A stretch of 64,000 nt of DNA from a virus: the UHGV virus genome UHGV-0390448. One strand, 5' to 3'. The notes beneath the pieces were generated by a model. The model did no database searches, was not told the origin of the DNA, and was given only the letters and a program-made list of their open reading frames with translations. Numbering within the stretch: the stretch's first letter is position 1; the number at the start of each line of letters is the position of its first letter. Made by a program: the position numbers and the translations under genes. Below are positions 6,215 through 38,051 of the stretch, piece after piece.

Positions 6215-6250
6215 AGTTATTCAAAATCCTTTTTAATAAACTACATGTTA

Positions 6251-6285: not shown

Positions 6286-6319
6286 TATTTTCAAGGCCAT
6301 TTTTTATTCGATTTAGCAT

Positions 6320-9791: not shown

Positions 9792-10594
9792 ATTGGCAGC
9801 CTCCTTTGACTAAGTTAAGGAGCTACCGCGTGAGGTTCCAATCTCAATGGCGGTAGCACTGACTGGGTTGGAACTACCGGCGTCAAAGGGAACCGGCCTG
9901 CCTTTCGGCAGCCCAGCCAGCACTACCATTGATCTCTGAGCTAAACGCTAAGTATGGCTGTGCGATGGCATGACACAAAAAAAGACGCTTTCGGCGTCTG
10001 TGTCGCCTTTGACATTATCCGGGGTTCCAATCCCGGCACCCGTTTTTCTAAGGTGCCGTAGAAATATACCCCACGATAATGCCTGGGCGCAACAGTCTGT
10101 ATTTTTATGCTTTGGAGGATTTCTTCCGGGCTTGTTTGCAAGCGTAGGCCATTGCTTTAGCTTTCACTTCATCCAGCTTTCCGGTGATCACTTCTTTTCC
10201 GAGAGTGACAAACCAGTCATAGCAACCGCCAGTGATGTTCTGGATTTGAAAGTTGAGGTAGCGAACGGTCATTTTGACACCCCCAGCGCGAGTAAAGAAT
10301 GCAGATTATCGCGTGAGTGGCGGACAATGAGTGATGGGGAAAGACAGTAGTTGTTCATAGTGTAGTGACTCCTTGCTTTCGGAGCCGCCATCGACTGTTC
10401 CACGGTCTGGTGGCGGCGCAATAAAGGCTGGAACACCGTGAGTCAACGGGGGCTTTTCAGCCACCTATATTGCACCGCCATTGGTATGGCGGCGGCAATC
10501 ATACGAAAAACCAAACGGTTTGTCTCAAAAAGTTGACCGGTGTACCAATCGGTTGTGAATGTACAACGGTGAATTTCACAATTCAACTTAAAAT

Positions 10595-11222: not shown

Positions 11223-11256
11223 TGTGTTAGAAAATCAAAATTGATTTTCTAACACA
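11223..11256. promoter_or_regulatory. 34-bp palindromic operator (gttagaa-N14-ttctaac) upstream of ref
   Basis: tgtgttagaaaatcaaaattgattttctaacaca, 16-bp perfect arms. Confidence 0.6.
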
Positions 11257-19801: not shown

Positions 19802-20182
19802 ATGACCACTTTAACCGACAAAGAACTGATTAAAGAAATCAAAGAGCGCATAGGCAGTCTGGACGTGCGAGACGATATTGAGCGCCGTGCTTATGAAATT
19901 GCTCTGGCATCACTGGAAGCAGAGCCGGTGGCGTGGCTTCATTCAGACAATGGCTTAGGTATTCCGGCAATAACGAGGAGTAAAAACATTGCTGACAGTT
20001 GGTTATCAAAGGGTTGGTATGTTCAGCCGCTATATATAGCCAAGCCAGTGCCAGTTGTACCGGAAGAAAAACCAATGCCTAACCCTCTTAGCAGGTACGC
20101 GGTTGATGCTGTTGCCGCTATTGCAGAGGTGAGAGGCTGGAACGCCTGTCGTGCCGCCATGCTTCATGGTAAAGGAGAGTGA
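19802..20182 (+). CDS. Hypothetical protein
   Basis: ORF only. Confidence 0.45.
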   Translation: MTTLTDKELIKEIKERIGSLDVRDDIERRAYEIALASLEAEPVAWLHSDNGLGIPAITRSKNIADSWLSKGWYVQPLYIAKPVPVVPEEKPMPNPLSRYAVDAVAAIAEVRGWNACRAAMLHGKGE

Positions 20183-20183
20183 T

Positions 20184-20393
20184 ATGGCTATTGCCGCAAG
20201 TTACACCATGCATCTCTATTGTGACTGCCGCCAGTGTACGGAAGGTGTATATCCAGTGCCAGACTTCGGTGAGTATATCGGTACGTCATGGTCTGGCTGT
20301 GCAAAAGAGGCACGTAAGGATGGCTGGCGAATAAGCAAAGACAAAACACGTGCTTTTGCGCCAGGGCATAAAGTTTTAAGGATTAACAAATGA
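20184..20393 (+). CDS. Hypothetical small Cys-rich protein
   Basis: Internal ATG with aaaggagag RBS; CDCRQC motif. Confidence 0.45.
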   Translation: MAIAASYTMHLYCDCRQCTEGVYPVPDFGEYIGTSWSGCAKEARKDGWRISKDKTRAFAPGHKVLRINK

Positions 20394-21328
20394 CCACTAT
20401 TACCAAAGAGTTCACCAAAGAGCAGTTGATTGAGCAGGCTAAGAAGAATATTGAGGTTCTTCGAGTTGCGGTGGAAAGAGTCCCAGGCGCTTATGATGCG
20501 GCGGTTATTCATCTCAAGCTGGCTGAAATTACGCTGGCATCGCTGGAAGCAGAGCCTGTTCTGTATCAGTCCTGCACACGCCCCACCTGGAATAGCGGAG
20601 TTCCGTGGACGGAATGGAAAGAACGTAGTCGTGAGGGCTACGAAGACGATTTGCGCTTTACAGACACGCCTGACCATGCCGGTTGGATAAACAAATGTCG
20701 AAAACTATATACCACTCCGCCAGCACCGATAGCGTTAGAGGCCATTGAAAACGCAATTGAATATATCCGCAGTATCGCTTTTCACATCGATGAAGACGAT
20801 TACCACGGCAAGCATATTGCGTATTTCATGCGACAAGCACTGGTCTGGCTGGAAGGGCATTCATGCAGCAACGACAGACAGGGTAAAGCCGAGAATCAAC
20901 CAGTACGCGGCAACCAGACTGCCGAATCCAATCGCGGTAATGAGTGGACCGGCAATCCTGATATTGATAACGCCATCATCATGCTCGATCGCATAGATAC
21001 GCTGGAAAGTTGCGATGATGACCGTATTGAGGCGGTTAAGGCTGTTTTGCGTAGACTGGCTGGCAACTATCCGGTAACTCCGGATGGTTGGATAAGCTGT
21101 AGTGAGCGAATGCCAGAAATGGGAGAGCGACAATGCTATGTGTTAGCAGCTGACTTTAAAAACAACTACCCACCAAACATCCCCAACACTCAGGTCGGCG
21201 TATATGGCGACTGGTTTAATGATGGCAATCCCACTTGGGATGACGGTGATGGCGAAGACCTGTATCTCAAAGAGGTAACCCACTGGATGCGGCTACCGGA
21301 ACCGCCGCAGGAGGTTAACCGTGGCTAA
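20390..21328 (+). CDS. Phage protein with C-terminal DUF551-like domain
   Basis: C-terminal VTHWMRLPEPP pattern. Confidence 0.5.
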   Translation: MTTITKEFTKEQLIEQAKKNIEVLRVAVERVPGAYDAAVIHLKLAEITLASLEAEPVLYQSCTRPTWNSGVPWTEWKERSREGYEDDLRFTDTPDHAGWINKCRKLYTTPPAPIALEAIENAIEYIRSIAFHIDEDDYHGKHIAYFMRQALVWLEGHSCSNDRQGKAENQPVRGNQTAESNRGNEWTGNPDIDNAIIMLDRIDTLESCDDDRIEAVKAVLRRLAGNYPVTPDGWISCSERMPEMGERQCYVLAADFKNNYPPNIPNTQVGVYGDWFNDGNPTWDDGDGEDLYLKEVTHWMRLPEPPQEVNRG

Positions 21329-21504
21329 CCTGCAACTTATCCTCAAAGGTGAAAAGATTTGAGGATTCGCATCATTAATAACACCGACAAGCATCCGGAA
21401 GATTATTTGGATTGCTCGTTAGCAGAGCGCGTGGAATTGATATAAGAAAATCTCCGCACATCGGCAACACACAGCTAAATATGTTCGCAATAAAGGGTAA
21501 ATCA

Positions 21505-21906
21505 ATGGCTAAATTTCGGAGAACTATTATTTTTCTGGCAATGTTATCTGCCTGCCATTTATCACATGCATCGGTTATTGTTGCAACCGCCGCAACAACG
21601 GCAGCAATTAGCGCCTCAGCCGCAAGCGAGCAGGAGCAACGCACTGCAATCAATGCATCCGCAAATACTACCACTGTAGCAGTCACGCAAGATAAGCCAA
21701 ATATAGGCTTTGTTACTTGCGGAAAACGGTATGGAGAGACGGTCGGTTCTCTTGGTTGCGCAGTGTGGCATGACGAACGAGCAGAAATTCCGTGGAAATC
21801 ATGGCCTGGTTACATTCTTGGCGAAAAGATACCCACCAGCTATGAAGTAAATGCTATTTCGTTCGATCAATATAACAGAGTCGCAACGGTCTACTTTTCT
21901 TATTAA
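21505..21906 (+). CDS. Secreted protein with signal peptide
   Basis: MAKFRRTIIFLAMLSACHLSHA; aaggg RBS; track ORF begins earlier at 21412. Confidence 0.5.
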   Translation: MAKFRRTIIFLAMLSACHLSHASVIVATAATTAAISASAASEQEQRTAINASANTTTVAVTQDKPNIGFVTCGKRYGETVGSLGCAVWHDERAEIPWKSWPGYILGEKIPTSYEVNAISFDQYNRVATVYFSY

Positions 21907-21912
21907 CACGGA

Positions 21913-22212
21913 GTGATTATGTGGCGCGGTAATAATCATGGCAGAAGCCATATGATACTTACCGAATATAAGCTAGACCACAAAACCAATAAATCACGCT
22001 CAGTATATTTGCTTCGGCACAATAGCCGCGTAAGGAATACCGTGCTGGAGCAAAATCTGACCGTTGAAATGGATAATTTCGGGAATTTCAGGCCAACAAT
22101 ATCGCTTGATGATTTCCCACGTGGTTTAAGCGAAAGAGAAGCAATGCTGAAATTAGCAGAATGGCTACAAAGATTGAGTATTGTTATTGAAGATAACTGG
22201 AGTCAACCATAA
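21913..22212 (+). CDS. Hypothetical protein
   Basis: ORF only. Confidence 0.4.
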   Translation: MIMWRGNNHGRSHMILTEYKLDHKTNKSRSVYLLRHNSRVRNTVLEQNLTVEMDNFGNFRPTISLDDFPRGLSEREAMLKLAEWLQRLSIVIEDNWSQP

Positions 22213-22388
22213 TGAAAAACAGAAAGAAATTTTGGATTACTTTTTTGTTTGTATGCCTTTGTGGTTTATTTATTTTATTAGCTGGTGGTGTTAAATGGGG
22301 TACGGTGGGGTGTGGTTTTTGGAGCGGGGTTACTCTTTTCGCAGCCTGGCTTATTGCCAACTTTGAGTCAGGCGGAGGGTATTGGTAA
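22212..22388 (+). CDS. Small membrane protein (58 aa), candidate
   Basis: ATG overlaps upstream stop (taATG); two hydrophobic segments. Below the ORF-track cutoff. Confidence 0.3.
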   Translation: MKNRKKFWITFLFVCLCGLFILLAGGVKWGTVGCGFWSGVTLFAAWLIANFESGGGYW

Positions 22389-22408
22389 GTGGTCTTATTC
22401 CCCACTTC

Positions 22409-22460
22409 ATAACGGATATCACTCTCGTGATAACGGATATTCCAATTTTGATAACGGATA
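22409..22460. repeat. Three direct repeats of ATAACGGATA at 21-bp phasing
   Basis: Copies at about 22409, 22430 and 22451, just upstream of the ATG at 22468. Confidence 0.55.
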
Positions 22461-22467
22461 AGGCCAA

Positions 22468-22677
22468 ATGAAGCATTTTTTAAGACTGGCATTTGTTCTG
22501 GCGCTATTTGCTCCTCCGGCTGCAATGGCTGGAGAACAGCAACATTGCACAAAAGAGAATGAACACCCTTTCATCGTTATTCAATGTGATGACGGAACGG
22601 TGACAGTAGTTAATGTAAGGGATAAACGTGCAGCCGTATGCCGTAAAGGCGAACCATGCAAGGAAATAAAACTATGA
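22468..22677 (+). CDS. Small secreted Cys-containing protein
   Basis: MKHFLRLAFVLALFAPPAAMA signal peptide; 69 aa. Confidence 0.5.
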   Translation: MKHFLRLAFVLALFAPPAAMAGEQQHCTKENEHPFIVIQCDDGTVTVVNVRDKRAAVCRKGEPCKEIKL

Positions 22678-23471
22678 CTAAAATCACTAAATTTCGCATA
22701 TCAGAGATTATTGCACGCATCGAAATGTATGGACACGGCGCTGGATACACGGCAGATGAGGTATTGGAGCTTGCCCAAATAGCGTTAGCAACCTGCAAAG
22801 ACGGTGAGAGTATAAAGCTGATTGACTTGTTGGTGCTGGAGCTGCCAAAGCGTGGAGGGTGGCCTGATGATGTGCTCGATTGTCGCATGGTTAGAGAGGA
22901 CTGCTGTGAACCATCATATGGTTTCTTTGCTTTTGGCTCTGATCCAGCGAAAAGCCCGCGTGGGCGCAATTTTTGCCTTGAGGTCAGGCTTCCGATAAGT
23001 AACCTTGATCGCGAGGAATACACGGAAATAATTTCGCGCAAACAATACGAAGAGGCTCTTGAAGCATCCAATAAGTTAAATTTTGAGCAATGGCTGGGGC
23101 AACAACGCGAAAAAATCGACCTGGACTGCGGTTGTGTGTCTACTGAAACATTCATGCACTGGCTGCGAGTAGCCTATGAATCTGGCAACCGTCTGGATAC
23201 TCATCCACAAGAGGTGCCGAAGCCAAGAGTAAGCACAACTCTGGAAAGGAGCTATCTTGAAACTGCATTAAAGATTAAGGCAGGCCATACGCTAGGCGTC
23301 ATTGATGCCATGTTGGTTCATGAAATGGCGAAGGCTTTACTACCAGAAATTCCCGCGAATACGCCTACGCAAGTTCTGGCGCTAATGAACCAACACAATC
23401 TGCCCAGGGAAGCATTCTGGTGCTTTGACCATGAACAGTGGAGATACTCATGCTATGAATGCCGGTATTAA
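22674..23471 (+). CDS. Hypothetical protein
   Basis: ORF; internal start MTKITKF with aggaaa RBS. Confidence 0.5.
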   Translation: MTKITKFRISEIIARIEMYGHGAGYTADEVLELAQIALATCKDGESIKLIDLLVLELPKRGGWPDDVLDCRMVREDCCEPSYGFFAFGSDPAKSPRGRNFCLEVRLPISNLDREEYTEIISRKQYEEALEASNKLNFEQWLGQQREKIDLDCGCVSTETFMHWLRVAYESGNRLDTHPQEVPKPRVSTTLERSYLETALKIKAGHTLGVIDAMLVHEMAKALLPEIPANTPTQVLALMNQHNLPREAFWCFDHEQWRYSCYECRY

Positions 23472-23527
23472 TGATGACTGGTGAGCTTGTAGTTCTGGCT
23501 ACCCGCAGTACCCCTGGTTACTACAAA

Positions 23528-23878
23528 TCATTGTAGTGGGTGGCATTTAACGAAATCGATCACCCTATCCTGAACTTCAGAAAGAAGGGCTTTTTCACGC
23601 GCCAGGACGTCAGGATATTGACGTTCTGGCCTTACCAGATGCCGGAGCTTCCCATTAAGCAGAATGGCCTCAGAAAACACTTTTACGCTGTGCTTTATCC
23701 CCTCTGTTTCACTTTTCAGCGTCAAAATAAAGCGCAATTGCTTATTAGCCTGATTCAGATTCAATACACGAATTTGCAGTTCGTCTATGCTGTTTCGCAA
23801 TGGGATTGATGCCACCACACTGGTGCAGTCTCTGATTGTCTGAATTGAACGGCTAACATTGAGAACGTTATTGTGCAT
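23528..23878 (-). CDS. Hypothetical protein
   Basis: ORF only; lone minus-strand gene in a plus-strand block. Confidence 0.35.
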   Translation of the reverse strand: MHNNVLNVSRSIQTIRDCTSVVASIPLRNSIDELQIRVLNLNQANKQLRFILTLKSETEGIKHSVKVFSEAILLNGKLRHLVRPERQYPDVLAREKALLSEVQDRVIDFVKCHPLQ

Positions 23879-23910
23879 GTGCCTGATCCACTAACTCCTG
23901 GAGGTTTCTT

Positions 23911-24162
23911 GTGTCAGATCGAAATATAGCAGCTAAAAGCCAGGAAGAGCGAGACAAGGTGAACGTAGACCTTGCCGCCAGCGGCGTTGCTTACAAAGAA
24001 CGGCTGAATATACCTGTGATTGCAGAGCAGGTGGCCCGTGAGCAACCGGAAAACCTGCGCGCATATTTCATGGAACGGCTACGGCACTACCGGCAGTTAA
24101 GCCTCCAGTTGCCAAAAGGGAGCGATCCGGTGTATCAGAACGAGGATGCACCAAAAAAATAA
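23911..24162 (+). CDS. Hypothetical protein, GTG start
   Basis: ggagg RBS before the GTG. Confidence 0.4.
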
Positions 24163-24187
24163 CGGCAAGATGGGGGAGACATTAAAC

Positions 24188-24538
24188 ATGCTTAACTATC
24201 ACGACAACACGCGTTCTATGCAGACAATCCGCACCAATACAGCGGTGGTTGATAGCTTTCCTGTACATACCCAAGGCCGTGAAGATACCGTGGAAGTGCG
24301 ACGCATGTTGTGTCGCCGGTCACCAGGCCACCAGCACTTCATCGTAACGTTTAAAAGCGATGTAGAGCGCGCCGAAAAAATCTCTAACTCCACATCTCTG
24401 GTTAAGCCGTTGGCGGAGGTTATTGTGCGCAACAATAAGGCGCGCTTTGTCCTTGAGGAGCATCATTCTGATTTTAATGAAAAAATCGAGTCAAGCATTT
24501 TGCAATATATGAATGGCACGTTCACGCCACCAATGTGA
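24188..24538 (+). CDS. Hypothetical protein
   Basis: Internal ATG with gggggaga RBS. Confidence 0.45.
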   Translation: MLNYHDNTRSMQTIRTNTAVVDSFPVHTQGREDTVEVRRMLCRRSPGHQHFIVTFKSDVERAEKISNSTSLVKPLAEVIVRNNKARFVLEEHHSDFNEKIESSILQYMNGTFTPPM

Positions 24539-24637
24539 TTAGCCCCCAGCGTGGCGCGCGTACAAACCCCGCTTTCACAAACTATGCCTTTTCAATGTAT
24601 ACTGTATGAATAAACAGTATTATTGAGGTAAAACGCT

Positions 24638-25027
24638 ATGGGCTTCCCTTCTCCTGCGGCGGATTATGCAGAGAGCCGTATTTCTCTTGATCAGCAACTA
24701 ATCAGACATCCTTCAGCAACCTACTTCATGCGGGCGGCAGACAGCCATCACCGTGAGGGAATATTGCAGGGTGCTTTGCTGGTGGTTGATTCCTCACTTA
24801 CTCCGGTTGATGGTTCACTGCTTATATGCGCTATGGAGGGGGAATATCGCGTAAAAAGATACCGGAAGTATCCGCGCCAGCACCTGGAGGATTTAAGAAC
24901 CGGGAAGAAAGAGGCGTTACCAGTAGATGACGATGGATACACGGGCAGTAATGCTGTTTTTGGTGTGATCACTCATGTCATCAATGATGCCCGAAGTGGG
25001 GAATTTGATGATTGTCCGGTGATTTAA
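24638..25027 (+). CDS. humD: HumD, UmuD-prime-like SOS mutagenesis protein
   Basis: GFPSPAADYAE...HPSATYF UmuD-family pattern; sits immediately before phd-doc as in P1. Confidence 0.7.
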   Translation: MGFPSPAADYAESRISLDQQLIRHPSATYFMRAADSHHREGILQGALLVVDSSLTPVDGSLLICAMEGEYRVKRYRKYPRQHLEDLRTGKKEALPVDDDGYTGSNAVFGVITHVINDARSGEFDDCPVI

Positions 25028-25099
25028 GCTGCAAAGTGCTGGTGCTTTATGCCTGTGAAGTTTATAGTTGTGTACACATAACGAGTACACGAGGTGTTT

Positions 25100-25321
25100 A
25101 TGCAATCCATTAACTTCCGTACCGCGCGCGGCAACCTTTCTGAAGTGCTCAACAATGTTGAAGCCGGGGAAGAGGTTGAAATCACCCGCAGAGGCCGTGA
25201 GCCAGCAGTAATTGTCAACAAGGCTACTTTTGAAGCCTACAAAAAAGCGGCGCTGGATGCCGAATTTGCATCCCTGTTTGACACTCTGGACTCCACCAAC
25301 AAGGAACTGGTTAACCGATAA
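25100..25321 (+). CDS. phd: Phd antitoxin (prevent-host-death)
   Basis: [39 protein letters not shown] is essentially the P1 Phd sequence as I recall it. Confidence 0.85.
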
Positions 25322-25701
25322 TGAGGCATATATCACCGGAAGAACTTATTGCGCTTCATGATGCGAATATAAACCGCTACGGCGGCCTGCCGGGAATGTC
25401 AGATCCGGGTAGGGCAGAGGCCATTATCGGGAGAGTTCAGGCCAGAGTTGCCTACGAAGAGATCACCGACCTTTTCGAAGTCTCCGCCACCTACCTGGTG
25501 GCTACTGCGAGAGGGCATATATTCAATGATGCCAATAAGCGTACCGCGCTAAACAGTGCGCTGCTATTTCTACGCCGTAACGGTATACAGGTATATGATT
25601 CTCCCGTGCTGGTGGAACTTGCGGTTGGGGCTGCAACTGGTGAAATCCCCGTATCTTCAGTAGCGGAGAAACTACGTGAACTATATGGTTCCAATATTTG
25701 A
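25321..25701 (+). CDS. doc: Doc toxin (death-on-curing, Fic-fold kinase)
   Basis: [48 protein letters not shown] matches P1 Doc. Confidence 0.85.
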
Positions 25702-28313: not shown

Positions 28314-28808
28314 TTAAAACTTTTCGTACTGAAGCGGTGTACGCTTGATTTCAACGCGGCCTTCCGATGTGCTACCAAAACCACCAGCACCTCGCTCTGT
28401 TTCATCGAGTTCATCAACTTCTACCAGCGATACCGGTTCAACACGCTCAAAAATGCCTTGCATGACCGCCATTCCAGGCTTGAGGCAAACACCTTCACCA
28501 CCGGGATCTGTAATCAGTTTTGCCATGATTTCACCGCGATAATCGGCGTCGATAATTCCTACGCAGTTAGCCAGGCGCGTATGCTTTTTGCAGCCCAATC
28601 CGGAACGAGGATAAAGTTTCAGACACCAACCAGGAGGGATCGCCATAGCGAGGCCGGTATGCACCCACCAGCTTGAGGAAATAGCGCCATTGCTATCGAT
28701 ACCAGGCGTTATTTCAACAGCAACAAAATCCATCGCCGCCGATCCGGCGGTGGCGTAAACGGGGAGTTTTGCCGCCGGATGAAGGCGTTTCACTTTCACG
28801 TTAATCAT
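28314..28808 (-). CDS. dut: dUTP diphosphatase (trimeric dUTPase)
   Basis: RSGLG, IIDADYRGE and GGFGSTS motifs. Confidence 0.7.
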   Translation of the reverse strand: MINVKVKRLHPAAKLPVYATAGSAAMDFVAVEITPGIDSNGAISSSWWVHTGLAMAIPPGWCLKLYPRSGLGCKKHTRLANCVGIIDADYRGEIMAKLITDPGGEGVCLKPGMAVMQGIFERVEPVSLVEVDELDETERGAGGFGSTSEGRVEIKRTPLQYEKF

Positions 28809-29293
28809 TGCTTTTTAGCTCTCCGGGTAAATGTATAAATCCGGCGTTTGATATGCGGAGCGGTCGGAACGGAGACGCAGGTATTCTCGATAACACCTTG
28901 CTCCTCCAGCGATCGCACAGCACGCAAGAACTGTGATGCATCGCCACCGCCAGATAGCCAGAATTTGCGGGCATAGACGCTGCCATTACGGATAATTTCT
29001 GCGATCACCCGCGCTTGCGTCTGGCTTTCTCGATAGCCAAAGAGTTCTCTTGCCTCTCCTTGTGGGATAGCCAACTGATAGCCTTTCCCGCTACGGTGAC
29101 GGACAAAACCGTGAGCAATGAGGTTCTTCAGCTCATTTCGGGTGCGGATACACCCGTACTCAGGGAACTGTGTGTTGATATCACCAGGCTTATGCCATTC
29201 ATCAGGGCTATCAGCCAGGAGGGACAGAAGTTTCCCTGACAGCTCAGGATTAGTGGTTGGATAGCAGTTCAGGGATGGGTAGTAAGTTTTCAT
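28805..29293 (-). CDS. Hypothetical protein
   Basis: ORF with overlapping junctions on both sides. Confidence 0.5.
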   Translation of the reverse strand: MKTYYPSLNCYPTTNPELSGKLLSLLADSPDEWHKPGDINTQFPEYGCIRTRNELKNLIAHGFVRHRSGKGYQLAIPQGEARELFGYRESQTQARVIAEIIRNGSVYARKFWLSGGGDASQFLRAVRSLEEQGVIENTCVSVPTAPHIKRRIYTFTRRAKKQ

Positions 29294-29634
29294 TTGCGCC
29301 CCCTTGCCGGATAGCGCCCGGCATTTGCATCAGGGGCAATGAAGCCGCTGGTGGGGCGAGTGAAAACATGGTTAATTTTCTCGGTCATAGCGCGATAATT
29401 TTCCTGATAGTGGGCCAGGAGTTTTTCAGCAGCAATGACGGTTACTTTCCGGACGTAGCGTTCAGCTTCCTCCAGATTTCGCCAGTTTTTTTCGAGGGTA
29501 AACACGGGAACGGCATCAAGTCCGGTCATAACACCGAACACCACGACCGCCTGGTCGCGCTTAACGCCCGCAGTGAAGGTTATGGTGTAACCGTCAACAG
29601 TGAAGCGTTTTGATTCCGTAATACGATTGTGCAA
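29290..29634 (-). CDS. Hypothetical protein, first gene downstream of cre
   Basis: 114 aa; occupies the position of P1 cra. Confidence 0.45.
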   Translation of the reverse strand: MHNRITESKRFTVDGYTITFTAGVKRDQAVVVFGVMTGLDAVPVFTLEKNWRNLEEAERYVRKVTVIAAEKLLAHYQENYRAMTEKINHVFTRPTSGFIAPDANAGRYPARGRK

Positions 29635-29692
29635 AGTACCCTCCGCAATAGGCGAGGGTACTTTACATTAAAATGCACTGTCTAAAAAGATT

Positions 29693-29699
29693 GTTAGAA
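29693..29699. promoter_or_regulatory. gttagaa half-site at the 3' end of cre
   Basis: ttgttagaaaattaattcagg. Confidence 0.3.
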
Positions 29700-29706
29700 A
29701 ATTAAT

Positions 29707-30735
29707 TCAGGAATCCATCAGGCGACTATTTGCACCAACGGATGCCCCGCTACGGCGCAAATATCGCATAAGTGTTTCGGGCTTTTTCCATGTGCCTTCC
29801 TGCATGATCTCGACCATTGACACCTGTTTCTCAGCCATATCAATTGCCGCACCAACACGCGCACTATGACCTGTCCACGTCCGGTATCTTCCTTTGTTCG
29901 GCGTGGCATCTCGCTTATTCAGCAATCCCCAGGCATCGCTGAATATTTTCTCCATCGCAGGAGCAGTAAGAGGCGTTGTCGTGATTCTGGCTTTATTACT
30001 GCGGTGTATTGGCGGGAATAGCACCGCGTCCGGATGTTCACGAAGTCCGGACACCTCCAGCCAGTCGTTTAGCACGGCGGTAGTGCAACGAGAAAGCACC
30101 TTATCAAGTCCGGCGGCGGTCGTGATGGTCTTCGTGTGTGAAATATGCAGCGTTACAGTGTCACCTGTTTGGTCCAGATCTCCGACACGGATGCGCGAGA
30201 TTTCTGACATACGCATCAGGGTATTGTATGCCACGAAGAGAAACGCCCGATTGCGCAGGTCCACCAGCCGCTCGGAACGGGACAGCAATACGTCGAGCAA
30301 TTTCAGATCATCCCACCGCAACGGTATAGCCTGGCCTGTACGCTCGCCTTTTTCCGTTGCCGCTTCGCGCCGGATGCGCCGCATGGCCAGAGATACACTT
30401 TTATCGTCTGACAGCGGCGGTAGGCCGCATTGCGAAAGCAGCATGTTAAGCATGGCATAGTGCTTATCAATGGTGGTCGAAGCCAGATCGGCTTCATGCA
30501 ACTGGAGAAGATACTCGCGGGCCATTTCCGGCGTAATCGGGAACCAGGGGCGCTGGCGCGAATTACACCACCGCGCCCAGGAATGAAAGACCAGACGGAG
30601 ATCACGAAGTGTATTTGGGGCATAAGCTCCCTGGTCGTTCATGAACTGCATAAAGTTTTTTGCAGCTTCCTGGTATTCGGTGCCAATATCGCGCAGAAAA
30701 CCGCCAGAACCGCCGGAGATAACTAGTTCACCCAT
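29707..30735 (-). CDS. cre: Cre-like tyrosine site-specific recombinase
   Basis: 342 aa; blocks WFPITPEMAREYLLQL, AYNTLMRMSEISRIRVGDL and WTGHSARVGAAIDMA align to P1 Cre (WFPAEPEDVRDYLLYL, AYNTLLRIAEIARIRVKDI, WSGHSARVGAARDMA). Confidence 0.85.
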   Translation of the reverse strand: MGELVISGGSGGFLRDIGTEYQEAAKNFMQFMNDQGAYAPNTLRDLRLVFHSWARWCNSRQRPWFPITPEMAREYLLQLHEADLASTTIDKHYAMLNMLLSQCGLPPLSDDKSVSLAMRRIRREAATEKGERTGQAIPLRWDDLKLLDVLLSRSERLVDLRNRAFLFVAYNTLMRMSEISRIRVGDLDQTGDTVTLHISHTKTITTAAGLDKVLSRCTTAVLNDWLEVSGLREHPDAVLFPPIHRSNKARITTTPLTAPAMEKIFSDAWGLLNKRDATPNKGRYRTWTGHSARVGAAIDMAEKQVSMVEIMQEGTWKKPETLMRYLRRSGASVGANSRLMDS

Positions 30736-30886
30736 GAAACTATTAAACCTCTATATACAGATGACGCTACGTGAAAAATAGAAAACTGACAGGGTAGTTA
30801 TAAGTTAATTTTCAAAATTCAAGCCTTTGATTCGAGGCATGATTTTTCATCCTTGTCAATACTACCTGTTTACTGGAGATTATAGC

Positions 30887-30920
30887 CTAACTTTAAATAA
30901 TGCCAATTATTTAAAGTTAG
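30887..30920. other. lox-like recombination site, 13-bp inverted arms with 8-bp asymmetric spacer
   Basis: ctaactttaaata-atgccaat-tatttaaagttag; arms 9/13 identical to loxP, spacer begins ATG like loxP; about 150 bp upstream of the cre-like start. Confidence 0.6.
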
Positions 30921-31089
30921 AAATCGGGACTTTTTTCCCAAAAAAACACCGGCAAGATCACTTCGCAAATCTGTCAGCCATGCGGTAGCCGTTTCCTGGT
31001 TACATTTTCTAATAGGAACAATCAAAAAAAAGCGGTTTTATCCTTTACTCACCTTGTTATTCAGCATAAATTTGTCACAGGACTTTTAT

Positions 31090-31096
31090 GTTAGAA
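31090..31096. promoter_or_regulatory. gttagaa half-site about 20 bp upstream of the candidate repressor gene
   Basis: atgttagaaaactaaat. Confidence 0.4.
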
Positions 31097-31116
31097 AACT
31101 AAATCGAGTAGGAATA

Positions 31117-32154
31117 ATGAGTAAGAAGTCGATCGAGAATGAGTACAAACGGTTCCTGCAAACCGCTGAACGGTGGAAAGAGCTGGTGGTCGCAAACTCT
31201 GTTTTCCATGATACCAGTTACGTTGGCGAGGAATTTCGCCATGTTGCATTAACACATGATCCGGCTGTATTAGAAGAAGCTGAAAAATGCATAGCCGAAT
31301 GGAAAGCCTTTGTTGATCTGTGTCGCAAGGATGATGACAAAGCCTCAAACATTGTTGAGTCGGTTTATTTACCGATCCCATTCATTGTTGAGGATACTAA
31401 TCAGAGTACGCATATCGTTATGCAAAGCGCAACCACAACGAGAACATTTACGCGCGAAGACCTGCTGAAAAAATACGATAAAACTATAAAGAAAAGCATG
31501 AAAAACAGGATCTTTTCACAGGTTGTCGGTGCGCTTGAAGAAGAACGCAGATTCTTCGCCGCAGAACGTGAGGGCGAGGTATACCGCGCAAGAAAAGAAG
31601 GTTATACCGATGTGGTGATTACCACCAATATCGAGGGCAACAATGGACTTTCACGCTTCAGAGTGGGTACGCACGGTGCGCTGATCTTTGCAAAAAAAGC
31701 AAACACAGAGATTCCCGTTGTTAACAACGTTGGTGAGCGCCGCACCCTTACCATTTACACTGGCATTAAACCGCTTCCGTGCGGACTTCTCGGCGAATTT
31801 GACCTTTATCGGGTTCGTGACCTGGAAAAGCAGCAGCCAAGCTATGTCGTGAAGTCATATATCCTGAGAAACATTGATATCCGCAATCAGAGTTTAAAAA
31901 ACAAATCAGAGAAAATGCTGTCCGAAGCCGATCCAGCCATACACCAGATCGTTAGCCGGAAAATTCAAGAAGCTAAAGATGCAATGGCAAGGCTGGATAA
32001 AATGGACCTGGAACTACTGGAAGTTATGATTGCCTCCGGCGATGACCTGACAGGCATCCGCCTTACTGAAGCCAGGAAAAAATACGGTAAAAGCGTTGAA
32101 GAACGCTATGGGTACACATTCACACAAACGATGTACGCGGCAAAACTCTGGTAA
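31117..32154 (+). CDS. Candidate immunity repressor, positional analogue of P1 c1; family not recognised
   Basis: 346 aa from MSKKSIENEY; convergent with pacB and between pacB and lox, where P1 has c1; own terminator. No similarity to P1 C1 recognised from memory. Confidence 0.5.
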   Translation: MSKKSIENEYKRFLQTAERWKELVVANSVFHDTSYVGEEFRHVALTHDPAVLEEAEKCIAEWKAFVDLCRKDDDKASNIVESVYLPIPFIVEDTNQSTHIVMQSATTTRTFTREDLLKKYDKTIKKSMKNRIFSQVVGALEEERRFFAAEREGEVYRARKEGYTDVVITTNIEGNNGLSRFRVGTHGALIFAKKANTEIPVVNNVGERRTLTIYTGIKPLPCGLLGEFDLYRVRDLEKQQPSYVVKSYILRNIDIRNQSLKNKSEKMLSEADPAIHQIVSRKIQEAKDAMARLDKMDLELLEVMIASGDDLTGIRLTEARKKYGKSVEERYGYTFTQTMYAAKLW

Positions 32155-32170
32155 TCGCAAGCCACCCACA

Positions 32171-32194
32171 AGCCCCGAATCGCCGGGGCTTTTA
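32171..32194 (+). terminator. Rho-independent terminator after the candidate repressor
   Basis: agccccg-aatcgc-cggggct followed by tttt. Confidence 0.55.
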
Positions 32195-33700
32195 AATGTC
32201 AATATCAGGAATATCCACTTCTGCCAACACCTGATCGCGGAATGTTGCTAGTTCTGCGCCAATGTCTTCATTAGCAGGCACGTAATCCACCAGCATAGTG
32301 AAGCAGTAGGTATCCCATCTGTCCGGCGACTTGATGTTTAACTTCTGCCGCATGTGCTCCTTGCGCATCATCGCCACCTTCCCTTCTTCGTTAAGCATAT
32401 ACGGGATTTTTGATGCCTGATCGGCAGTTTTGGGGTCACTATCGATACGCATACGCCCTGATTTAATGGCATCCCCTGCCATAATATTGGCGTAAGCACG
32501 CTGATTGACAAAGCGTTCTCTGTCTCTTAGCGCAAACATAGGTTTACCCCAACGGATGCGAACGGGATTAGCACCACGGCGGACAAGCTGCGCACACGTA
32601 TCTGAACCAAAGCCATCAGCATCCACAGCAATGGTGATGTTCGGGTATTTATCAGGAGTGCATTCGTTATAGATAAAGTCGGCAAAAGCCAACGGGTCCA
32701 TAGTGCCTGGCATCTCCAGTATCTTAAAGTTCACAACACGTCGTTTCTCACGATAACCGGATACTTTGCATATATTGAGCACCGATTTGTCGCGACCATT
32801 ACCGACGTCAGCGGTCGCTACCCAGCCCCAATCTTTCTCCAGCAACACTTTACGCCGTGCGGCGCGGTCGCACTCATCACGACCAAGCAAATACCCGTTA
32901 ATTGCACGCGGGAACTGGCCCAGCACCTTAACCATGTACTCCAGCGAATCCCTGCCGCCGTACTCCAGCAATTTCTCACGAATAAAGCTCGGTTCAACGA
33001 ATGGAGATTCTTCAGAGTTAAGGACTATTGCCGTCCAGACTCCTTCCGGATTGCCTTCTGCCTTTGCCCTTGAATGGTGGGATTCATAAAAGTAACCGCT
33101 TGGACGCGTAGGCTGGGAAAGCATGAGCATACGGTTATCTTTCTGCGTTAACGCCCCCGTCATGACGTTAATCGCCTTATCTGATATGCCCGATGCTTCA
33201 TCAAGGATTAGCAGTAAATGCTCCGCGTGCTCCCCCGCCAGTGCCTCTTCGTTACCGAGTCGATAACCTTTACAGAGCACTTCCCATATCCCTTTACGGG
33301 AACGCTCATAAAACATGGTGTCAGACAGGACAAAATAGGTCTGTAACCAGCCGTGGCGCTTAACAGCATTCGCCCAAAACTGTTTCACGTATTTGAATAC
33401 GCCTGTTTTTACCTGGCCTATTTTGTTCGCAACAATAATGACGCGGGCGTCGGGGAACAGGATCATAAAAATTAGTAGCAACATCGCGGTAAGGGACGAC
33501 TTACCCGTTCCGTGTCCGGACGTAACGGTCGTCCTGCTCCCCGTCTCCTGCACTGACTGAATGATCTGCTGCTGCTGGTGGGAGGGGAACATCCCAAAAA
33601 TATCGACAACCGCCTGGGTAAAGTTGTATCGATACCTGATAACCATATCGCGCCAACGTGGATCACTGGTGACGCACTTAATCTTACGACCACCAGCCAT
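32192..33700 (-). CDS. pacB: Terminase large subunit (PacB-like)
   Basis: Walker A-like TSGHGTGKSS, Walker B LLLILDEASGI; 502 aa; follows pacA. Confidence 0.8.
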   Translation of the reverse strand: MAGGRKIKCVTSDPRWRDMVIRYRYNFTQAVVDIFGMFPSHQQQQIIQSVQETGSRTTVTSGHGTGKSSLTAMLLLIFMILFPDARVIIVANKIGQVKTGVFKYVKQFWANAVKRHGWLQTYFVLSDTMFYERSRKGIWEVLCKGYRLGNEEALAGEHAEHLLLILDEASGISDKAINVMTGALTQKDNRMLMLSQPTRPSGYFYESHHSRAKAEGNPEGVWTAIVLNSEESPFVEPSFIREKLLEYGGRDSLEYMVKVLGQFPRAINGYLLGRDECDRAARRKVLLEKDWGWVATADVGNGRDKSVLNICKVSGYREKRRVVNFKILEMPGTMDPLAFADFIYNECTPDKYPNITIAVDADGFGSDTCAQLVRRGANPVRIRWGKPMFALRDRERFVNQRAYANIMAGDAIKSGRMRIDSDPKTADQASKIPYMLNEEGKVAMMRKEHMRQKLNIKSPDRWDTYCFTMLVDYVPANEDIGAELATFRDQVLAEVDIPDIDI

Positions 33701-35064
33701 TAGTCATCCTCCGGCTGGTCTATCGCAATCTCGTCATCTACAGCATCAAAACCGGTATCCCCCGCGTCATAATCACCGTAGATATCAGCCGTGGCGGAAG
33801 GGTCTATATTCAGGTCTTCATCATTGGCCTCAAATTCACCGGCTTTACGTTCTCCGTTCCGGTCGTAATCCCCCATCCCAAGCCTATCAACGATTTTCGC
33901 TACTTCAGCCCGGCGTTGTGCAAGCCATTGTGGGAGTCCAGCTTGTTGCTCGGCAAACTGCTTCGCCTCTTTATCCAGTTGCTCATCATCAACATCGTTA
34001 ACGTCAGAAACCGGAGGCTCCAGAAGTGAGATCGCTTTTGCCGCTCGTGCCGCCAGGATAGCCGGGACACTGACGCCCTGCCGCTCGATATATTCAGCAA
34101 CGCCTATATCGTCCAGCTCCTCGCGCTCACGCATACGTATAGCGGCGGCGATAACTCTGGCGGCGCGTGCGTCAGCGCCAATGCGATACTCAATCTCTTT
34201 GCCACGCTGCTCGGCTTGCAGGCGAGTAATCGCCAGTTTTTCTCTGGCCTCAGCCTCTCTGAATGCCTGCTGGCGCGCGCCCTGCGCAAGTTTTTCATCC
34301 CCCTGGCGTAGCTTCTGCTCGGTCTGGTAGATGGCAGCCAACCTACTGATAAAGTCATTCATGTAGTAGGCCGCATCGCTTATTAGGCCGAGAAGACGCT
34401 GCCCTGGGTGCATTCCCTCTGGCTGTGTATCGCCGAGGGCGTCAATCTCTTCCTGTAGTCGTTCCGCTTCCTGGTCAACGATGGCCTGATACTGAATTGC
34501 TCGTTCCTGCGCCATCTGTATCGCAAGTCGTAAATGTTCAGTCGCGCCGTTCTTCATCATCTCACGGGCGACGTTGGTGGCAGGCAAAGTGGCGCTTTGA
34601 GCTGATGAGTCAGGGATCATTTGCAATGATCCCTTGTTTCGTTGGGCTTTTTCGCTGCTTTTAGGGATCATTTCCCCCATTTCATCACAAAATGATCCCC
34701 TTACATCCTTGTGTATCTTATTGTTATTACTTGGCTTTTCTTTGTGATCCGCATTTTGTTTTTGCGGCATGGCGCGGAATCGTCCACCAGCTAACGATTT
34801 GTCAGTTTTTGTAAATTCTGTGCTTTTATCAGCCTTTTTTTGCTCTTTTTTTGGGCTTGTGGCGCTACTTTTTGCGCGCTGTTTTGTACTTTTCCCGGCA
34901 GCCTTAGCTTTCGCTTTAACCTCGTTTTTTTTCATATTGAGATGCTTTCTGGCGGTGTTAAAGCTGAGGTCATGCTGCTCGCAATATTCTTTTATGGTGA
35001 TCCCGGTTTCTTCTCTTAACTCCAGGAACTTAGCTCGATGCGCTTCCCAGTTAATTAACGTCAT
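33700..35064 (-). CDS. pacA: Terminase small subunit (PacA-like); contains pac-like repeats
   Basis: Position upstream of pacB with start-stop overlap; N-terminal HTH-like region; internal GATC repeat cluster. Confidence 0.6.
   Translation of the reverse strand: MTLINWEAHRAKFLELREETGITIKEYCEQHDLSFNTARKHLNMKKNEVKAKAKAAGKSTKQRAKSSATSPKKEQKKADKSTEFTKTDKSLAGGRFRAMPQKQNADHKEKPSNNNKIHKDVRGSFCDEMGEMIPKSSEKAQRNKGSLQMIPDSSAQSATLPATNVAREMMKNGATEHLRLAIQMAQERAIQYQAIVDQEAERLQEEIDALGDTQPEGMHPGQRLLGLISDAAYYMNDFISRLAAIYQTEQKLRQGDEKLAQGARQQAFREAEAREKLAITRLQAEQRGKEIEYRIGADARAARVIAAAIRMREREELDDIGVAEYIERQGVSVPAILAARAAKAISLLEPPVSDVNDVDDEQLDKEAKQFAEQQAGLPQWLAQRRAEVAKIVDRLGMGDYDRNGERKAGEFEANDEDLNIDPSATADIYGDYDAGDTGFDAVDDEIAIDQPEDD
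34612..34700. other. Candidate pac site: four GATC-centred heptamers as two inverted pairs
   Basis: agggatcatt/aatgatccc at about 34612-34633 and again at about 34664-34699, inside pacA; P1 pac is built from Dam-site hexamer repeats within pacA. Confidence 0.45.
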
Positions 35065-35453
35065 AGGGAAGCCTCACGTTTTTTCACAGCGGCGTTCCAT
35101 AGCTGGTTAGTCATCGCCACCAACTGACGCTGCTCCTTTCGTAATTGAGCTTCTATCTTTCGGTTGGTGTTTTTCACCAACAGCCGACCGAATTCAGGAG
35201 TGCGCCCGCGCACCTTGAACTGGTATCCATTCAGGCCATGTAGCCAATATTTCCGGGGGTATACGCGGTCGTCTATTTCGCAAATGGCACGACTGGAACG
35301 AACAAAAAAACGTATGATGTTATTTACGTTTACGCGCGACACATGAAGGTGAGGATATTGTGCTTTTGCACGGCTGGTGATTTCGGTGACCGTCAGATAG
35401 CAGTCAGCCCTGATCATGATATCCGCTATTTCGGCGCTACTGATTTGCTCCAT
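35061..35453 (-). CDS. Hypothetical protein at the position of P1 lpa (late promoter activator); unverified
   Basis: 130 aa immediately upstream of pacA; degenerate operator site upstream. Confidence 0.35.
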   Translation of the reverse strand: MEQISSAEIADIMIRADCYLTVTEITSRAKAQYPHLHVSRVNVNNIIRFFVRSSRAICEIDDRVYPRKYWLHGLNGYQFKVRGRTPEFGRLLVKNTNRKIEAQLRKEQRQLVAMTNQLWNAAVKKREASL

Positions 35454-35530
35454 TTATCCCCCGGATAGAAAAAGACCGAGGGGATGATAATCAGCTTGTT
35501 AATACTGAGAAGACTGTCAAAAACATGATG

Positions 35531-35558
35531 TATTAGAAAATTAATATTAACTTACTAA
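35531..35558. promoter_or_regulatory. Degenerate operator site attagaa-N14-tactaac
   Basis: Same 7-14-7 spacing; upstream of 35061-35453. Confidence 0.4.
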
Positions 35559-35560
35559 CA

Positions 35561-35944
35561 CTACCAGCGGGATAAACGAACAACATGCTTAACTTTTGCC
35601 TCCCACTTCCCTTTATGTTTGTTGATCACCGCCTGCGCCATCTTCAGACTGGCTTCAAAATCGGCTTTTCGACCACTATTGCCCACCAGCAACGCTCCGT
35701 CTATTTCGGGTAAGCATAAGTAATCCTGCTCGACGGTAAGCGGCATTGATGATGTAACCTGGCAGGCTTTCCATCTGAAGCGTATGCGCACACTCCTGAC
35801 TGACATCACGACATAACCTGATATTGTGCTCTTGTGTCCGGCGTCTGTGCGTGTAGCCTTGCATGATGTTATCTTGCAGGTGATGATGTCCCAACCAATG
35901 TGCATCGCATCCTCAATGCGTAATTTAGTAGCCTCGTACATCAA
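35561..35944 (-). CDS. Hypothetical protein
   Basis: ORF only. Confidence 0.45.
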   Translation of the reverse strand: MMYEATKLRIEDAMHIGWDIITCKITSCKATRTDAGHKSTISGYVVMSVRSVRIRFRWKACQVTSSMPLTVEQDYLCLPEIDGALLVGNSGRKADFEASLKMAQAVINKHKGKWEAKVKHVVRLSRW

Positions 35945-36970: not shown

Positions 36971-37046
36971 TGGTGGCCCCTACCGGACTTGAACCGGTGA
37001 CCGTGCGATTATGAGTCGCCCGCTCTAACCACTGAGCTAAAGGGCC
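36971..37046 (-). tRNA. tRNA with CAU anticodon, most similar to tRNA-Ile2 (lysidine type); Met not excluded
   Basis: Reverse complement GGCCCTTTAGCTCAGTGGTTAGAGCGGGCGACTCATAATCGC...GGTTCAAGTCCGGTAGGGGCCACCA resembles E. coli ileX; CCA encoded. Confidence 0.8.
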
Positions 37047-37063
37047 AGATTACTGTTAATTAC

Positions 37064-37192
37064 GCTTACGCTTTTTGCCAGAACCGCGTAAGGCTTTTGC
37101 CGCTTGCTCTACCCCGTATGCAACCACCAGCAGAAACAATAATGTCCACTCCGGGTTTTTATCGGCAAACGCCCAAAAATCCATCACTTGCA
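37064..37192 (-). CDS. Small membrane peptide (about 42 aa) inside the tRNA operon, candidate
   Basis: aaggtgg RBS 7 nt before ATG; predicted MDFWAFADKNPEWTLLFLLVVAYGVEQAAKALRGSGKKRKRN. Below the ORF-track cutoff. Confidence 0.4.
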
Positions 37193-37474
37193 GCCACCTT
37201 TTAAGACAAACGCCATTGCTGTTAGGTTGCGGTGCCGGGTGCCTCCCGGTGACGTTAACCAGTTAACAATTAACGCCGGATCACTTATGGATTCTCGTTA
37301 CGCCAGTAAAAAGACCACCTTTACTGTTTTAACTGTTCCGCGTGCGCTTAGCCGCATTCACCGCAATGGTAAGAGCATTTGGCTGACTGGGCGGCGATGA
37401 CGCCTGTACGCATTTGGTGATCCGGTTCTGCTTCCGGCATTCGCTTAATTAGCCAAATACTCTTAACGTTGCGA

Positions 37475-37561
37475 TGGCGGAGAGTAATGGAATCGAACCA
37501 TCATCGCTTGGGCGACGGGACGGTTTTCAAGACCGCTTGAGCACCATGCTCCCTACTCTCC
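37475..37561 (-). tRNA. Atypical type-II tRNA, Ser-like (UGA anticodon)
   Basis: Anticodon arm GCGGT-CTTGAAA-ACCGT as in E. coli serT, long variable arm, T-loop TTCGATT, CCA encoded; D-arm non-canonical. Confidence 0.5.
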
Positions 37562-37719
37562 AGTGATTGTGGTGGTCGGTGCTGATCTCCGACTGCGCCT
37601 CTTTTTTTCATAGCCCATAAGGCCGGTCAGTGCGCTTGATGACTGAGGCATCGATATTTACTACGCCGCCTCGTTGCCATAGGGCGGACTTGCGCGCCAG
37701 CAACGCGCATTCACCACAA

Positions 37720-37793
37720 CGGTAAGGGTACTTCGTAGGGATTCGAACCCTCTGCCAAGCACGGCGATCTCCGACGTCGCAAAATACCCTTAC
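37720..37793 (-). other. tRNA-like fragment: perfect T-arm inside a 10-bp inverted repeat, no acceptor pairing or CCA
   Basis: GGTAAGGGTA...AGGG-TTCGAAT-CCCT...TACCCTTACC on the minus strand; cannot be folded into a canonical cloverleaf. Confidence 0.3.
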
Positions 37794-37802
37794 CTGTTGT
37801 GT

Positions 37803-37878
37803 TGGTGCCGGTTAACGGACTCGAACCGCTGACATCCTGCTTACAAGGCAGGCGCTCTACCAACTGAGCTAAACCGGC
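37803..37878 (-). tRNA. tRNA-Thr (UGU)
   Basis: GCCGGTTTAGCTCAGTTGGTAGAGCGCCTGCCTTGTAAGCAGG...GGTTCGAGTCCGTTAACCGGCACCA; canonical cloverleaf. Confidence 0.85.
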
Positions 37879-37882
37879 AATT

Positions 37883-37969
37883 TGGTGGGGAGTGATGGAG
37901 TCGAACCATCCGAGTCGCAATGACAGTAGATTTACAGTCTACCCCGCTACCCCTACGGACTAACTCCCC
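37883..37969 (-). tRNA. Type-II tRNA, Tyr-like (GUA anticodon), atypical D-arm
   Basis: Anticodon arm GTAGA-CTGTAAA-TCTAC, long variable arm, T-arm GATGG-TTCGACT-CCATC, CCA encoded. Confidence 0.55.
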
Positions 37970-37974
37970 TAAAT

Positions 37975-38051
37975 TGGCGATGGTGGGTGGATTCGAACCA
38001 CCGACCGACAGCTTAGAAGGCTGCTGCTCTATCCTACTGAGCTACACCATC
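37975..38051 (-). tRNA. tRNA-Arg (UCU)
   Basis: GATGGTGTAGCTCAGTAGGATAGAGCAGCAGCCTTCTAAGCTG...GGTTCGAATCCACCCACCATCGCCA; resembles E. coli argU. Confidence 0.8.

What the first reader, a model, noticed from the sequence alone, without database searches (positions are those of the whole stretch)
30887..30920. Heterospecific lox-like site paired with a divergent Cre homologue
A 34-bp site with perfect 13-bp inverted arms around an 8-bp asymmetric spacer (ctaactttaaata-atgccaat-tatttaaagttag) sits about 150 bp upstream of a 342-aa Cre homologue (29707-30735). Arms share 9 of 13 positions with loxP and the spacer starts ATG like loxP, but the sequences differ enough that this is probably a distinct Cre/lox specificity. 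That could be useful as an orthogonal recombination pair.
Basis: partly seen in the sequence, partly recalled or inferred. Interest (0 to 1): 0.7.

Follow-up and report, generated by a model that had tools for sequence, protein, structure and literature searches.

The report
Known Dre recombinase and rox site
The palindrome is the exact rox site and the gene beside it is a natural variant (94% identical) of Dre recombinase from phage D6, a Cre/loxP-like pair described in 2004 and already widely used as an orthogonal genome-engineering tool, so the finding is real but not new.

Summary
Window 30887-30920 holds a perfect palindrome, more exactly 15-nt arms around a 4-nt centre (GCCA). Its inner 32 bp (30888-30919) are identical, base for base, to wild-type rox, the target of Dre recombinase of phage D6. 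The ORF at 29707-30735 (- strand, 342 aa) is 94% identical to D6 Dre without gaps. It keeps the catalytic residues R175, K202, H290, R293, W316 and Y325, and the three residues (R44, P259, K263) that published work links to rox rather than loxP recognition. Gene order (dre, rox, c1, pacB, pacA) matches D6. The window is a D6-like E. coli phage-plasmid, about 86% identical to D6 in DNA and 99.4% identical to plasmid NZ_CP069647. The exact protein is already public on 144 contigs. Rox occurs once per replicon in 130 plasmid records and in 113 of 5,426 complete E. coli genomes. One small extra: three Dre clades (89-94% identical to D6 Dre) share an invariant rox, and a near-consensus promoter (TTGGCA in the rox centre, 16 nt, TATAAT) reads into dre and is conserved. 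That suggests Dre represses its own gene, which is untested.

The parts
30888..30919 (+). rox, the 32-bp recombination target of Dre (TAACTTTAAATAATGCCAATTATTTAAAGTTA)
   Evidence: Identical to the misc_recomb 'rox' feature of D6 record AY753669 and to the published wild-type roxP oligonucleotide (PMC4777119). It is exact in all 29 related loci read.
30887..30920 (.). The outermost C/G pair is not part of the conserved site.
   Evidence: The outer pair is C...T in D6 and A...G or C...G in the third clade, so it is not conserved.
29707..30735 (-). dre allele: a Cre-like tyrosine recombinase of 342 aa
   Evidence: 322 of 342 residues identical to D6 Dre AAV84949 with no gaps. Matches Cre structures at E 4e-72. 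Pfam Phage_integrase plus the SAM-like N-terminal domain. Catalytic R175, K202, H290, R293, W316 and Y325 are present. Specificity residues R44, P259 and K263 are present. The exact sequence is public on 144 contigs.
30879..30906 (-). Candidate sigma-70 promoter reading into dre: -35 TTGGCA (30906-30901, the rox centre), a 16-nt spacer (the left rox arm plus GGC), and -10 TATAAT (30884-30879)
   Evidence: An 11 of 12 consensus match. TATAAT is kept at the same spacing in 9 of 10 flank haplotypes while the 3-nt linker and the downstream sequence vary. Function is inferred, not shown.
31117..32154 (+). c1 prophage repressor homologue (345 aa), transcribed divergently from dre
   Evidence: 277 of 345 residues (80%) identical to D6 C1. 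Weak, sub-threshold match to NCBIfam phage_rep_C1. Same position as in D6.
32192..33700 (-). pacB (terminase large subunit) homologue
   Evidence: A 502-aa ORF, the same size and position as D6 pacB. The D6 immC record aligns across window 28504-35751 (H76).
33700..35064 (-). pacA (terminase small subunit) homologue
   Evidence: A 454-aa ORF, the same size and position as D6 pacA (H76). It contains no P1-type TGATCR hexamers.

Best explanation
This is the Dre/rox site-specific recombination module of a D6-like E. coli phage-plasmid, carrying a natural allele of Dre. By homology with Cre/loxP, one Dre monomer binds each inverted arm of rox. Two rox sites synapse in a Dre tetramer. Tyr325, assisted by R175, K202, H290, R293 and W316, cleaves and exchanges one pair of strands and then the other through a Holliday intermediate within the central crossover region. 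The asymmetric centre (GCCA) gives the site its direction, and no accessory factors are needed. In the element's life cycle the single rox copy most likely does what lox does in P1: it resolves plasmid-prophage dimers into monomers so they can be partitioned, and it circularises terminally redundant virion DNA after injection. Shown here: identity of the site, orthology of the protein, retention of the catalytic and specificity residues, synteny, a single copy per replicon, and absolute conservation of the site. Shown in the literature for D6 Dre: recombination at rox and orthogonality to Cre. Inferred: that this 94% allele is active on rox, and the life-cycle roles.
For: The 32-bp core equals annotated D6 rox and published roxP. 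The protein is 94% identical to Dre over its full length. The catalytic hexad is intact, as listed for Dre in PMC4777119. The Dre-type residues at Cre positions 43, 259 and 263 (R, P, K), which suffice to give Cre activity on rox (PMC4957104), are present. None of the 20 substitutions relative to D6 Dre falls on those or on the other Cre contact positions I checked. The order dre, rox, c1, pacB, pacA and the 152-nt spacing between rox and the dre ATG match D6 and 18 other loci. Rox is invariant, while the flanks fall to 82% (left) and 55% (right) identity between clades, c1 falls to 76% in DNA, and three Dre clades differ by 6-11% in protein. There is one copy per record in 130 plasmids and 113 E. 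coli genomes, 111 of 114 places on plasmids. The P1 record annotates cre as 'cyclization recombinase' next to lox.
Against: No activity data exist for this allele. Of its 20 substitutions, 15 lie in the N-terminal DNA-binding domain (residues 1-102), and their effect is untested. The pac site could not be located: no P1-type hexamer cluster was found, and pac is not annotated in the D6 records. So the claim that rox falls within the terminal redundancy of some virions rests on analogy with P1 only. The viral loci were retrieved by exact match to rox, so their invariance is partly by selection. The plasmid and E. coli hits came from BLAST, and the six plasmid and E. coli loci I read, including three hits with mismatches in the 48-nt query, all carried an exact rox.
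Confidence: 0.93

Rival explanations
1. The window allele is a new specificity, distinct from both Cre and Dre: the 20 substitutions have shifted its target, making it a third orthogonal pair.
For: There are 20 substitutions, 15 of them in the N-terminal domain that contacts DNA in Cre. The protein forms its own clade together with L007 and L014.
Against: The adjacent site is identical to rox at all 32 positions. The three published specificity residues are Dre-type. A still more divergent clade (89% identical) also keeps the same rox. Even Panto, at 52% identity, cross-recombines rox.
Confidence: 0.03
2. The palindrome is mainly a transcriptional element (an operator or a hairpin terminator between dre and c1), and recombination is incidental.
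For: A near-consensus promoter overlaps the site. The site lies in a divergent regulatory region between dre and c1.
Against: The same 32 bp are an experimentally established recombination target. The hairpin is A+T-rich and was not called as a terminator. A promoter or operator role is compatible with the recombination role and does not replace it.
Confidence: 0.03
3. It is a decaying remnant: the module is no longer functional in this element.
For: None directly. Some dre-rox copies sit in IS26/IS1-bounded fragments on resistance plasmids, where the phage context is lost.
Against: The ORF is intact at 342 aa with all catalytic residues. The site is perfect. The exact protein is seen on 144 contigs. 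The full D6-like context is present in the window.
Confidence: 0.01

Closest known systems
Dre/rox of Escherichia phage D6 (Sauer and McDermott 2004; GenBank AY753669, MF356679)
   Same: An identical 32-bp rox. A 342-aa recombinase that is 94% identical, with no gaps. The same 152-nt spacing between site and gene. The same neighbours: dut, orf3 and orf2 on one side, c1, pacB and pacA on the other.
   Different: There are 20 amino-acid substitutions (15 in residues 1-102). The base just outside the right arm is G rather than T, which extends the palindrome to 15+15. The 130 nt to the right of rox are essentially unrelated (55% identity). The C1 repressor is only 80% identical, so this may be a different immunity type.
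Cre/loxP of phage P1
   Same: The same fold family and catalytic residues, with about 40% identity (139 of 342). A 34-bp-class palindromic site with 9 of 13 arm positions shared. A single site next to the recombinase gene in a plasmid prophage.
   Different: The site sequence and the specificity residues differ (K43/R259/G263 in Cre against R/P/K here). The asymmetric centre is 4 bp rather than 8 bp. Here the site lies 152 nt from the gene, with no cra gene in between and a candidate promoter overlapping the site. P1 has about 420 nt, cra, and three promoters, none of which overlaps lox.
Panto/pox (Pantoea sp.; Karimova et al. 2016, PMC4957104)
   Same: A Cre-type recombinase whose site differs from rox at one arm position and four spacer positions. 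It shares the R/P/K specificity residues and cross-recombines rox.
   Different: It is only 52% identical to Dre, whereas the window protein is 94% identical and has rox itself.

Membership tests
Dre/rox system (phage D6 type) | Target site is the 32-bp rox sequence TAACTTTAAATAATGCCAATTATTTAAAGTTA | tested here: met
   Exact match at 30888-30919, checked against annotated D6 rox and published roxP.
Dre/rox system (phage D6 type) | Recombinase is orthologous to D6 Dre (full length, collinear, high identity) | tested here: met
   322 of 342 identical, 0 gaps.
Dre/rox system (phage D6 type) | Dre-type specificity residues at Cre positions 43, 259 and 263 (R, P, K) | tested here: met
   R44, P259 and K263 in the window protein. 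Their role is described in PMC4957104.
Dre/rox system (phage D6 type) | Genomic position: site between dre and c1, next to pacB and pacA, one copy per replicon | tested here: met
   One place per record.
Dre/rox system (phage D6 type) | Recombines rox x rox and does not recombine loxP | not testable with these tools
   Shown for D6 Dre in the literature. Needs a reporter assay for this allele.
Cre-like tyrosine recombinases | Catalytic residues R-K-H-R-W-Y (Cre R173, K201, H289, R292, W315, Y324) | tested here: met
   R175, K202, H290, R293, W316 and Y325.
Cre-like tyrosine recombinases | Two-domain architecture: SAM-like N-terminal domain plus phage-integrase catalytic domain, homologous to Cre over the full length | tested here: met
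   PF02899 (25.9 bits, cut-off 22.3) and PF00589 (61.7 bits, cut-off 27.1). Residues 22-341 align to Cre 21-340 at E 4e-72.
Cre/loxP of P1 (same specificity) | loxP site (ATAACTTCGTATA-N8-TATACGAAGTTAT) | tested here: not met
   No match in the window with up to 3 mismatches. The site shares 21 of 34 positions with loxP.
Cre/loxP of P1 (same specificity) | Cre-type DNA-recognition residues K43, R259, G263 | tested here: not met
   R, P and K instead.

The most novel reading that the evidence does not exclude
Rox doubles as the core of the dre promoter. The -35 hexamer TTGGCA is the asymmetric centre of rox, the left arm fills the 16-nt spacer, and a conserved TATAAT lies 3 nt beyond the site. 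Dre bound to rox would then shut off its own transcription. This would be an autoregulatory layout not annotated for P1 cre, whose three promoters all lie clear of lox. It would also add a second constraint that could help explain why the 32 bp are invariant across three Dre clades.
Probability: 0.35. Interest if true: 0.3.

Novelty: already known. Interest (0 to 1): 0.1.

Why it matters
It matters little as a discovery. Dre/rox has been known since 2004 and is a standard orthogonal partner to Cre/loxP in mice, zebrafish, yeast and bacteria. The result does show that the first-stage reader can recognise a real heterospecific recombinase and site pair from raw sequence. Three modest points come out of the check. 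First, natural Dre alleles differing by 6-11% all keep the same rox, so they form a ready-made panel of variants for anyone optimising Dre. Second, rox is an island of absolute conservation in an otherwise fast-diverging regulatory region. Third, a conserved promoter overlapping rox hints at Dre autoregulation, and it means that native D6 sequence extending a few bases beyond rox on the dre side would carry a complete bacterial promoter.

Tried and rejected
1. I looked for a canonical loxP in the window (arms with up to 3 mismatches) and found none.
2. I looked for extra rox sites or half-sites. Only the two arms themselves matched, plus one 2-mismatch hit at 63097-63110, which is within chance expectation.
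3. I tried to locate a P1-type pac site (a cluster of TGATCA/G Dam hexamers) in pacA to support the cyclization role. There are no hexamers at all in 33700-35064, and pac is not annotated in either D6 record. The pac position therefore remains unknown.
4. I tried to read Sauer and McDermott 2004 (DOI and PMC534624), the D6 genome paper (PMC5800970) and the P1 genome paper (PMC523184). None is held, so I could not check whether the rox-overlapping promoter has already been described.
5. I considered rox as a hairpin terminator. It was not called as one, and it is A+T-rich.
6. I considered the 11 of 12 promoter match as significant on its own. It is not: the window has 2 such sites against 1.2 expected. 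The argument rests on position, strand and conservation.
7. I considered rox as a mosaic breakpoint between clades. The divergence actually surrounds rox on both sides, leaving a conserved island. Only L016 clearly combines a D6-type left side with a different right side, so this remains a hint only.
8. The large protein-database searches, structure prediction and fold searches were not needed and were not run.

Full report
**Observation.** The site is unique in the window at up to 3 mismatches and absent from 100 shuffles. Only three places in the 64 kb have perfect inverted arms of 13 nt or more within 10 nt of each other. The comparison with loxP is also as stated: 9 of 13 positions in each arm and ATG at the start of the spacer, 21 of 34 overall. 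The neighbouring ORF at 29707-30735 (- strand) encodes 342 aa.

**Identification.** A megablast of 29600-31200 against phage records hit only Escherichia phage D6. The annotated features under the match were 'dre: tyrosine recombinase', 'c1: phage repressor protein' and 'region of crossover (rox) site for Dre recombinase'. Alignment with D6 record AY753669 shows that the inner 32 bp (30888-30919) are identical to the annotated rox. The same 32-mer is given as the wild-type roxP oligonucleotide in PMC4777119. The protein is 322 of 342 (94%) identical to D6 Dre without gaps, and it matches Cre crystal-structure sequences at E about 4e-72 over residues 22-341. Pfam finds the phage-integrase catalytic domain and the SAM-like N-terminal domain, both above their cut-offs. 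In a three-way alignment the Cre catalytic residues R173, K201, H289, R292, W315 and Y324 correspond to R175, K202, H290, R293, W316 and Y325. PMC4777119 lists five of these (all but the lysine) for Dre at the same numbering.

**Specificity.** Karimova et al. (PMC4957104) showed that changing Cre K43, R259 and G263 to the Dre/Panto residues R, P and K gives Cre activity on rox. The window protein has R44, P259 and K263. Of the 20 differences from D6 Dre, 15 lie in residues 1-102 and 5 in the C-terminal domain. None falls on the catalytic residues, on the three specificity positions, or on the other Cre contact positions that I checked from my own knowledge of the Cre-loxP structure. There is no loxP in the window.

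**Context.** The order dre, rox, c1, pacB, pacA is that of D6, and the D6 immC record aligns across window 28504-35751. The C1 homologue (31117-32154) is 80% identical to D6 C1. The window as a whole is a D6-like phage-plasmid. It is about 86% identical to D6 in DNA where it aligns, with P1-like patches, and this locus is 99.4% identical to E. coli plasmid NZ_CP069647. The exact protein is already in public databases under generic names such as 'tyrosine-type recombinase/integrase'. It has been seen on 144 contigs and sits in a 90%-identity cluster of 845 members.

**Distribution and conservation.**
- The rox 32-mer occurs in 21 IMG/VR contigs.
- A 48-nt query centred on it hits 130 PLSDB plasmids, mostly non-mobilizable replicons of about 90 kb from Escherichia, Salmonella and Shigella.
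- The same query hits 113 of 5,426 complete E. coli genomes. There is nearly always one copy per record, and 111 of 114 places are on plasmids.
- In every locus with enough flank, a 342-aa dre begins 152 nt from rox.
- Two protein clades appear among the viral contigs: the D6 type and the window type, 94% identical to each other.
- A third clade, about 89% identical to D6 Dre, appears on resistance plasmids.
- All three clades sit next to the identical 32 bp.
- Between the D6-type and window-type clades, the 150 nt to the left of rox are 82% identical, the 200 nt to the right 55%, and the c1 region 76%.
- Rox plus about 10 nt on the dre side therefore forms an island of complete conservation in the most divergent part of the locus.
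- BLAST hits with mismatches in the 48-nt query carry them in the flanks, not in rox.
- The outermost C/G pair that makes 15-nt arms here is not conserved, so the functional site is the 32 bp.

**Mechanism.** From the established mechanism of Cre-type tyrosine recombinases and the published work on Dre:
- One monomer binds each arm.
- Two sites synapse in a tetramer.
- The tyrosine (Y325) cleaves and exchanges strands in two steps through a Holliday junction.
- The asymmetric centre sets the direction of the site.

Mutational mapping suggests that the functional crossover region of rox extends beyond the 4-bp centre and is about as long as that of loxP.

For the element itself, a single site next to the recombinase gene on a low-copy plasmid prophage fits the two roles known for Cre/lox in P1. 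These are dimer resolution before partition, and circularisation of terminally redundant virion DNA. The basis is my own knowledge of the P1 literature, plus the P1 record, which annotates cre as 'cyclization recombinase'. I could not support the circularisation role further. The P1-type pac hexamers are absent from pacA, and pac is not annotated in the D6 records.

**One additional observation.** On the dre strand, the centre of rox reads TTGGCA. Sixteen nucleotides further on, 3 nt beyond the end of rox, lies TATAAT. Together they match the sigma-70 consensus at 11 of 12 positions. Such matches are not rare across the whole window (2 found, 1.2 expected). However, this one is on the right strand, about 145 nt upstream of the dre ATG. 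Its TATAAT is retained at the same spacing in 9 of 10 flank haplotypes across all three clades, while the 3-nt linker (ggc, agc, gac, tca, gta) and the sequence beyond it vary. In P1 the three annotated cre promoters lie between lox and cre, and none overlaps lox. A Dre dimer on rox would cover the -35 hexamer and the spacer of this promoter, so autorepression is a reasonable hypothesis. It is untested, and I could not check whether the original D6 papers already describe it.

**Verdict.** The window carries a natural allele of Dre with the canonical rox. Novelty: already known. Interest: low.

Noticed in passing
L026 2820-4035, L027 2820-4035, L028 2821-4036, L030 328-1543: A third Dre clade (about 89% identical to D6 Dre) with an exact rox sits in short fragments bounded by IS26, IS1 or IS30 on large resistance or conjugative plasmids: IncC/IncFIB (214 kb), IncFIB (49 kb), IncX3/IncY with NDM (102 kb) and a 183-kb plasmid. 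The dre-rox module therefore also travels outside intact phage-plasmids.
   Followed up: partly
window 30921-31050 compared with L001 2737-2880; L016: Immediately to the right of rox, the window type and the D6 type are essentially unrelated for about 130 nt (55% identity). Locus L016 combines a D6-type dre side (97%) with a third type of right flank and c1. This is compatible with exchange at or near rox between co-resident elements, as lox does in P1 crosses, but rox is a conserved island rather than a clean boundary.
   Followed up: partly
window 31117-32154: The C1 repressor homologue is only 80% identical in protein (76% in DNA) to D6 C1, and at least one further c1 type exists among relatives (L016, L009). 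These D6-like phage-plasmids may fall into several immunity types.
   Followed up: partly
window 36971-38051 (- strand): A cluster of five tRNA genes (Met-CAT, Ser-TGA, Thr-TGT, Tyr-GTA, Arg-TCT) on the phage-plasmid.
   Followed up: no
window 9846-9933, 9978-10056, 51288-51373, 51442-51494 (all - strand): There are two separate C4 antisense RNA genes in one window. One is followed by an isrK-like sRNA and the other by the c4 a1/b1 target element (Rfam, all above gathering score). This would mean two immI-type antirepressor control modules.
   Followed up: no
window 6248-6288 and 11223-11256: Two other long perfect palindromes: ATAAACTACAGGTTATAT-CA-ATATAACCTGTAGTTTAT, and TGTGTTAGAAAATCAA-AA-TTGATTTTCTAACACA just upstream of an ORF that starts near 11298. 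They may be operators or other protein-binding sites.
   Followed up: no
window 33700-35064: pacA contains no TGATCA/G hexamers at all, so the Dam-methylation-controlled pac site architecture of P1 is not present at the equivalent place. The pac site of this lineage is unidentified.
   Followed up: partly
window 30736-30860: The roughly 100 nt directly upstream of the dre start codon (the presumed 5' leader) are conserved between clades more strongly than the flanking intergenic DNA. They include an invariant TTGACA at 30840-30835 (- strand) with no obvious -10 partner.
   Followed up: no
window 20171-25692: This segment is about 95% identical to P1-type phages (RCS47, P1, SJ46), carrying humD and phd/doc-type genes, whereas the rest of the window is D6-like at about 86%. 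The backbone is therefore a mosaic.
   Followed up: no
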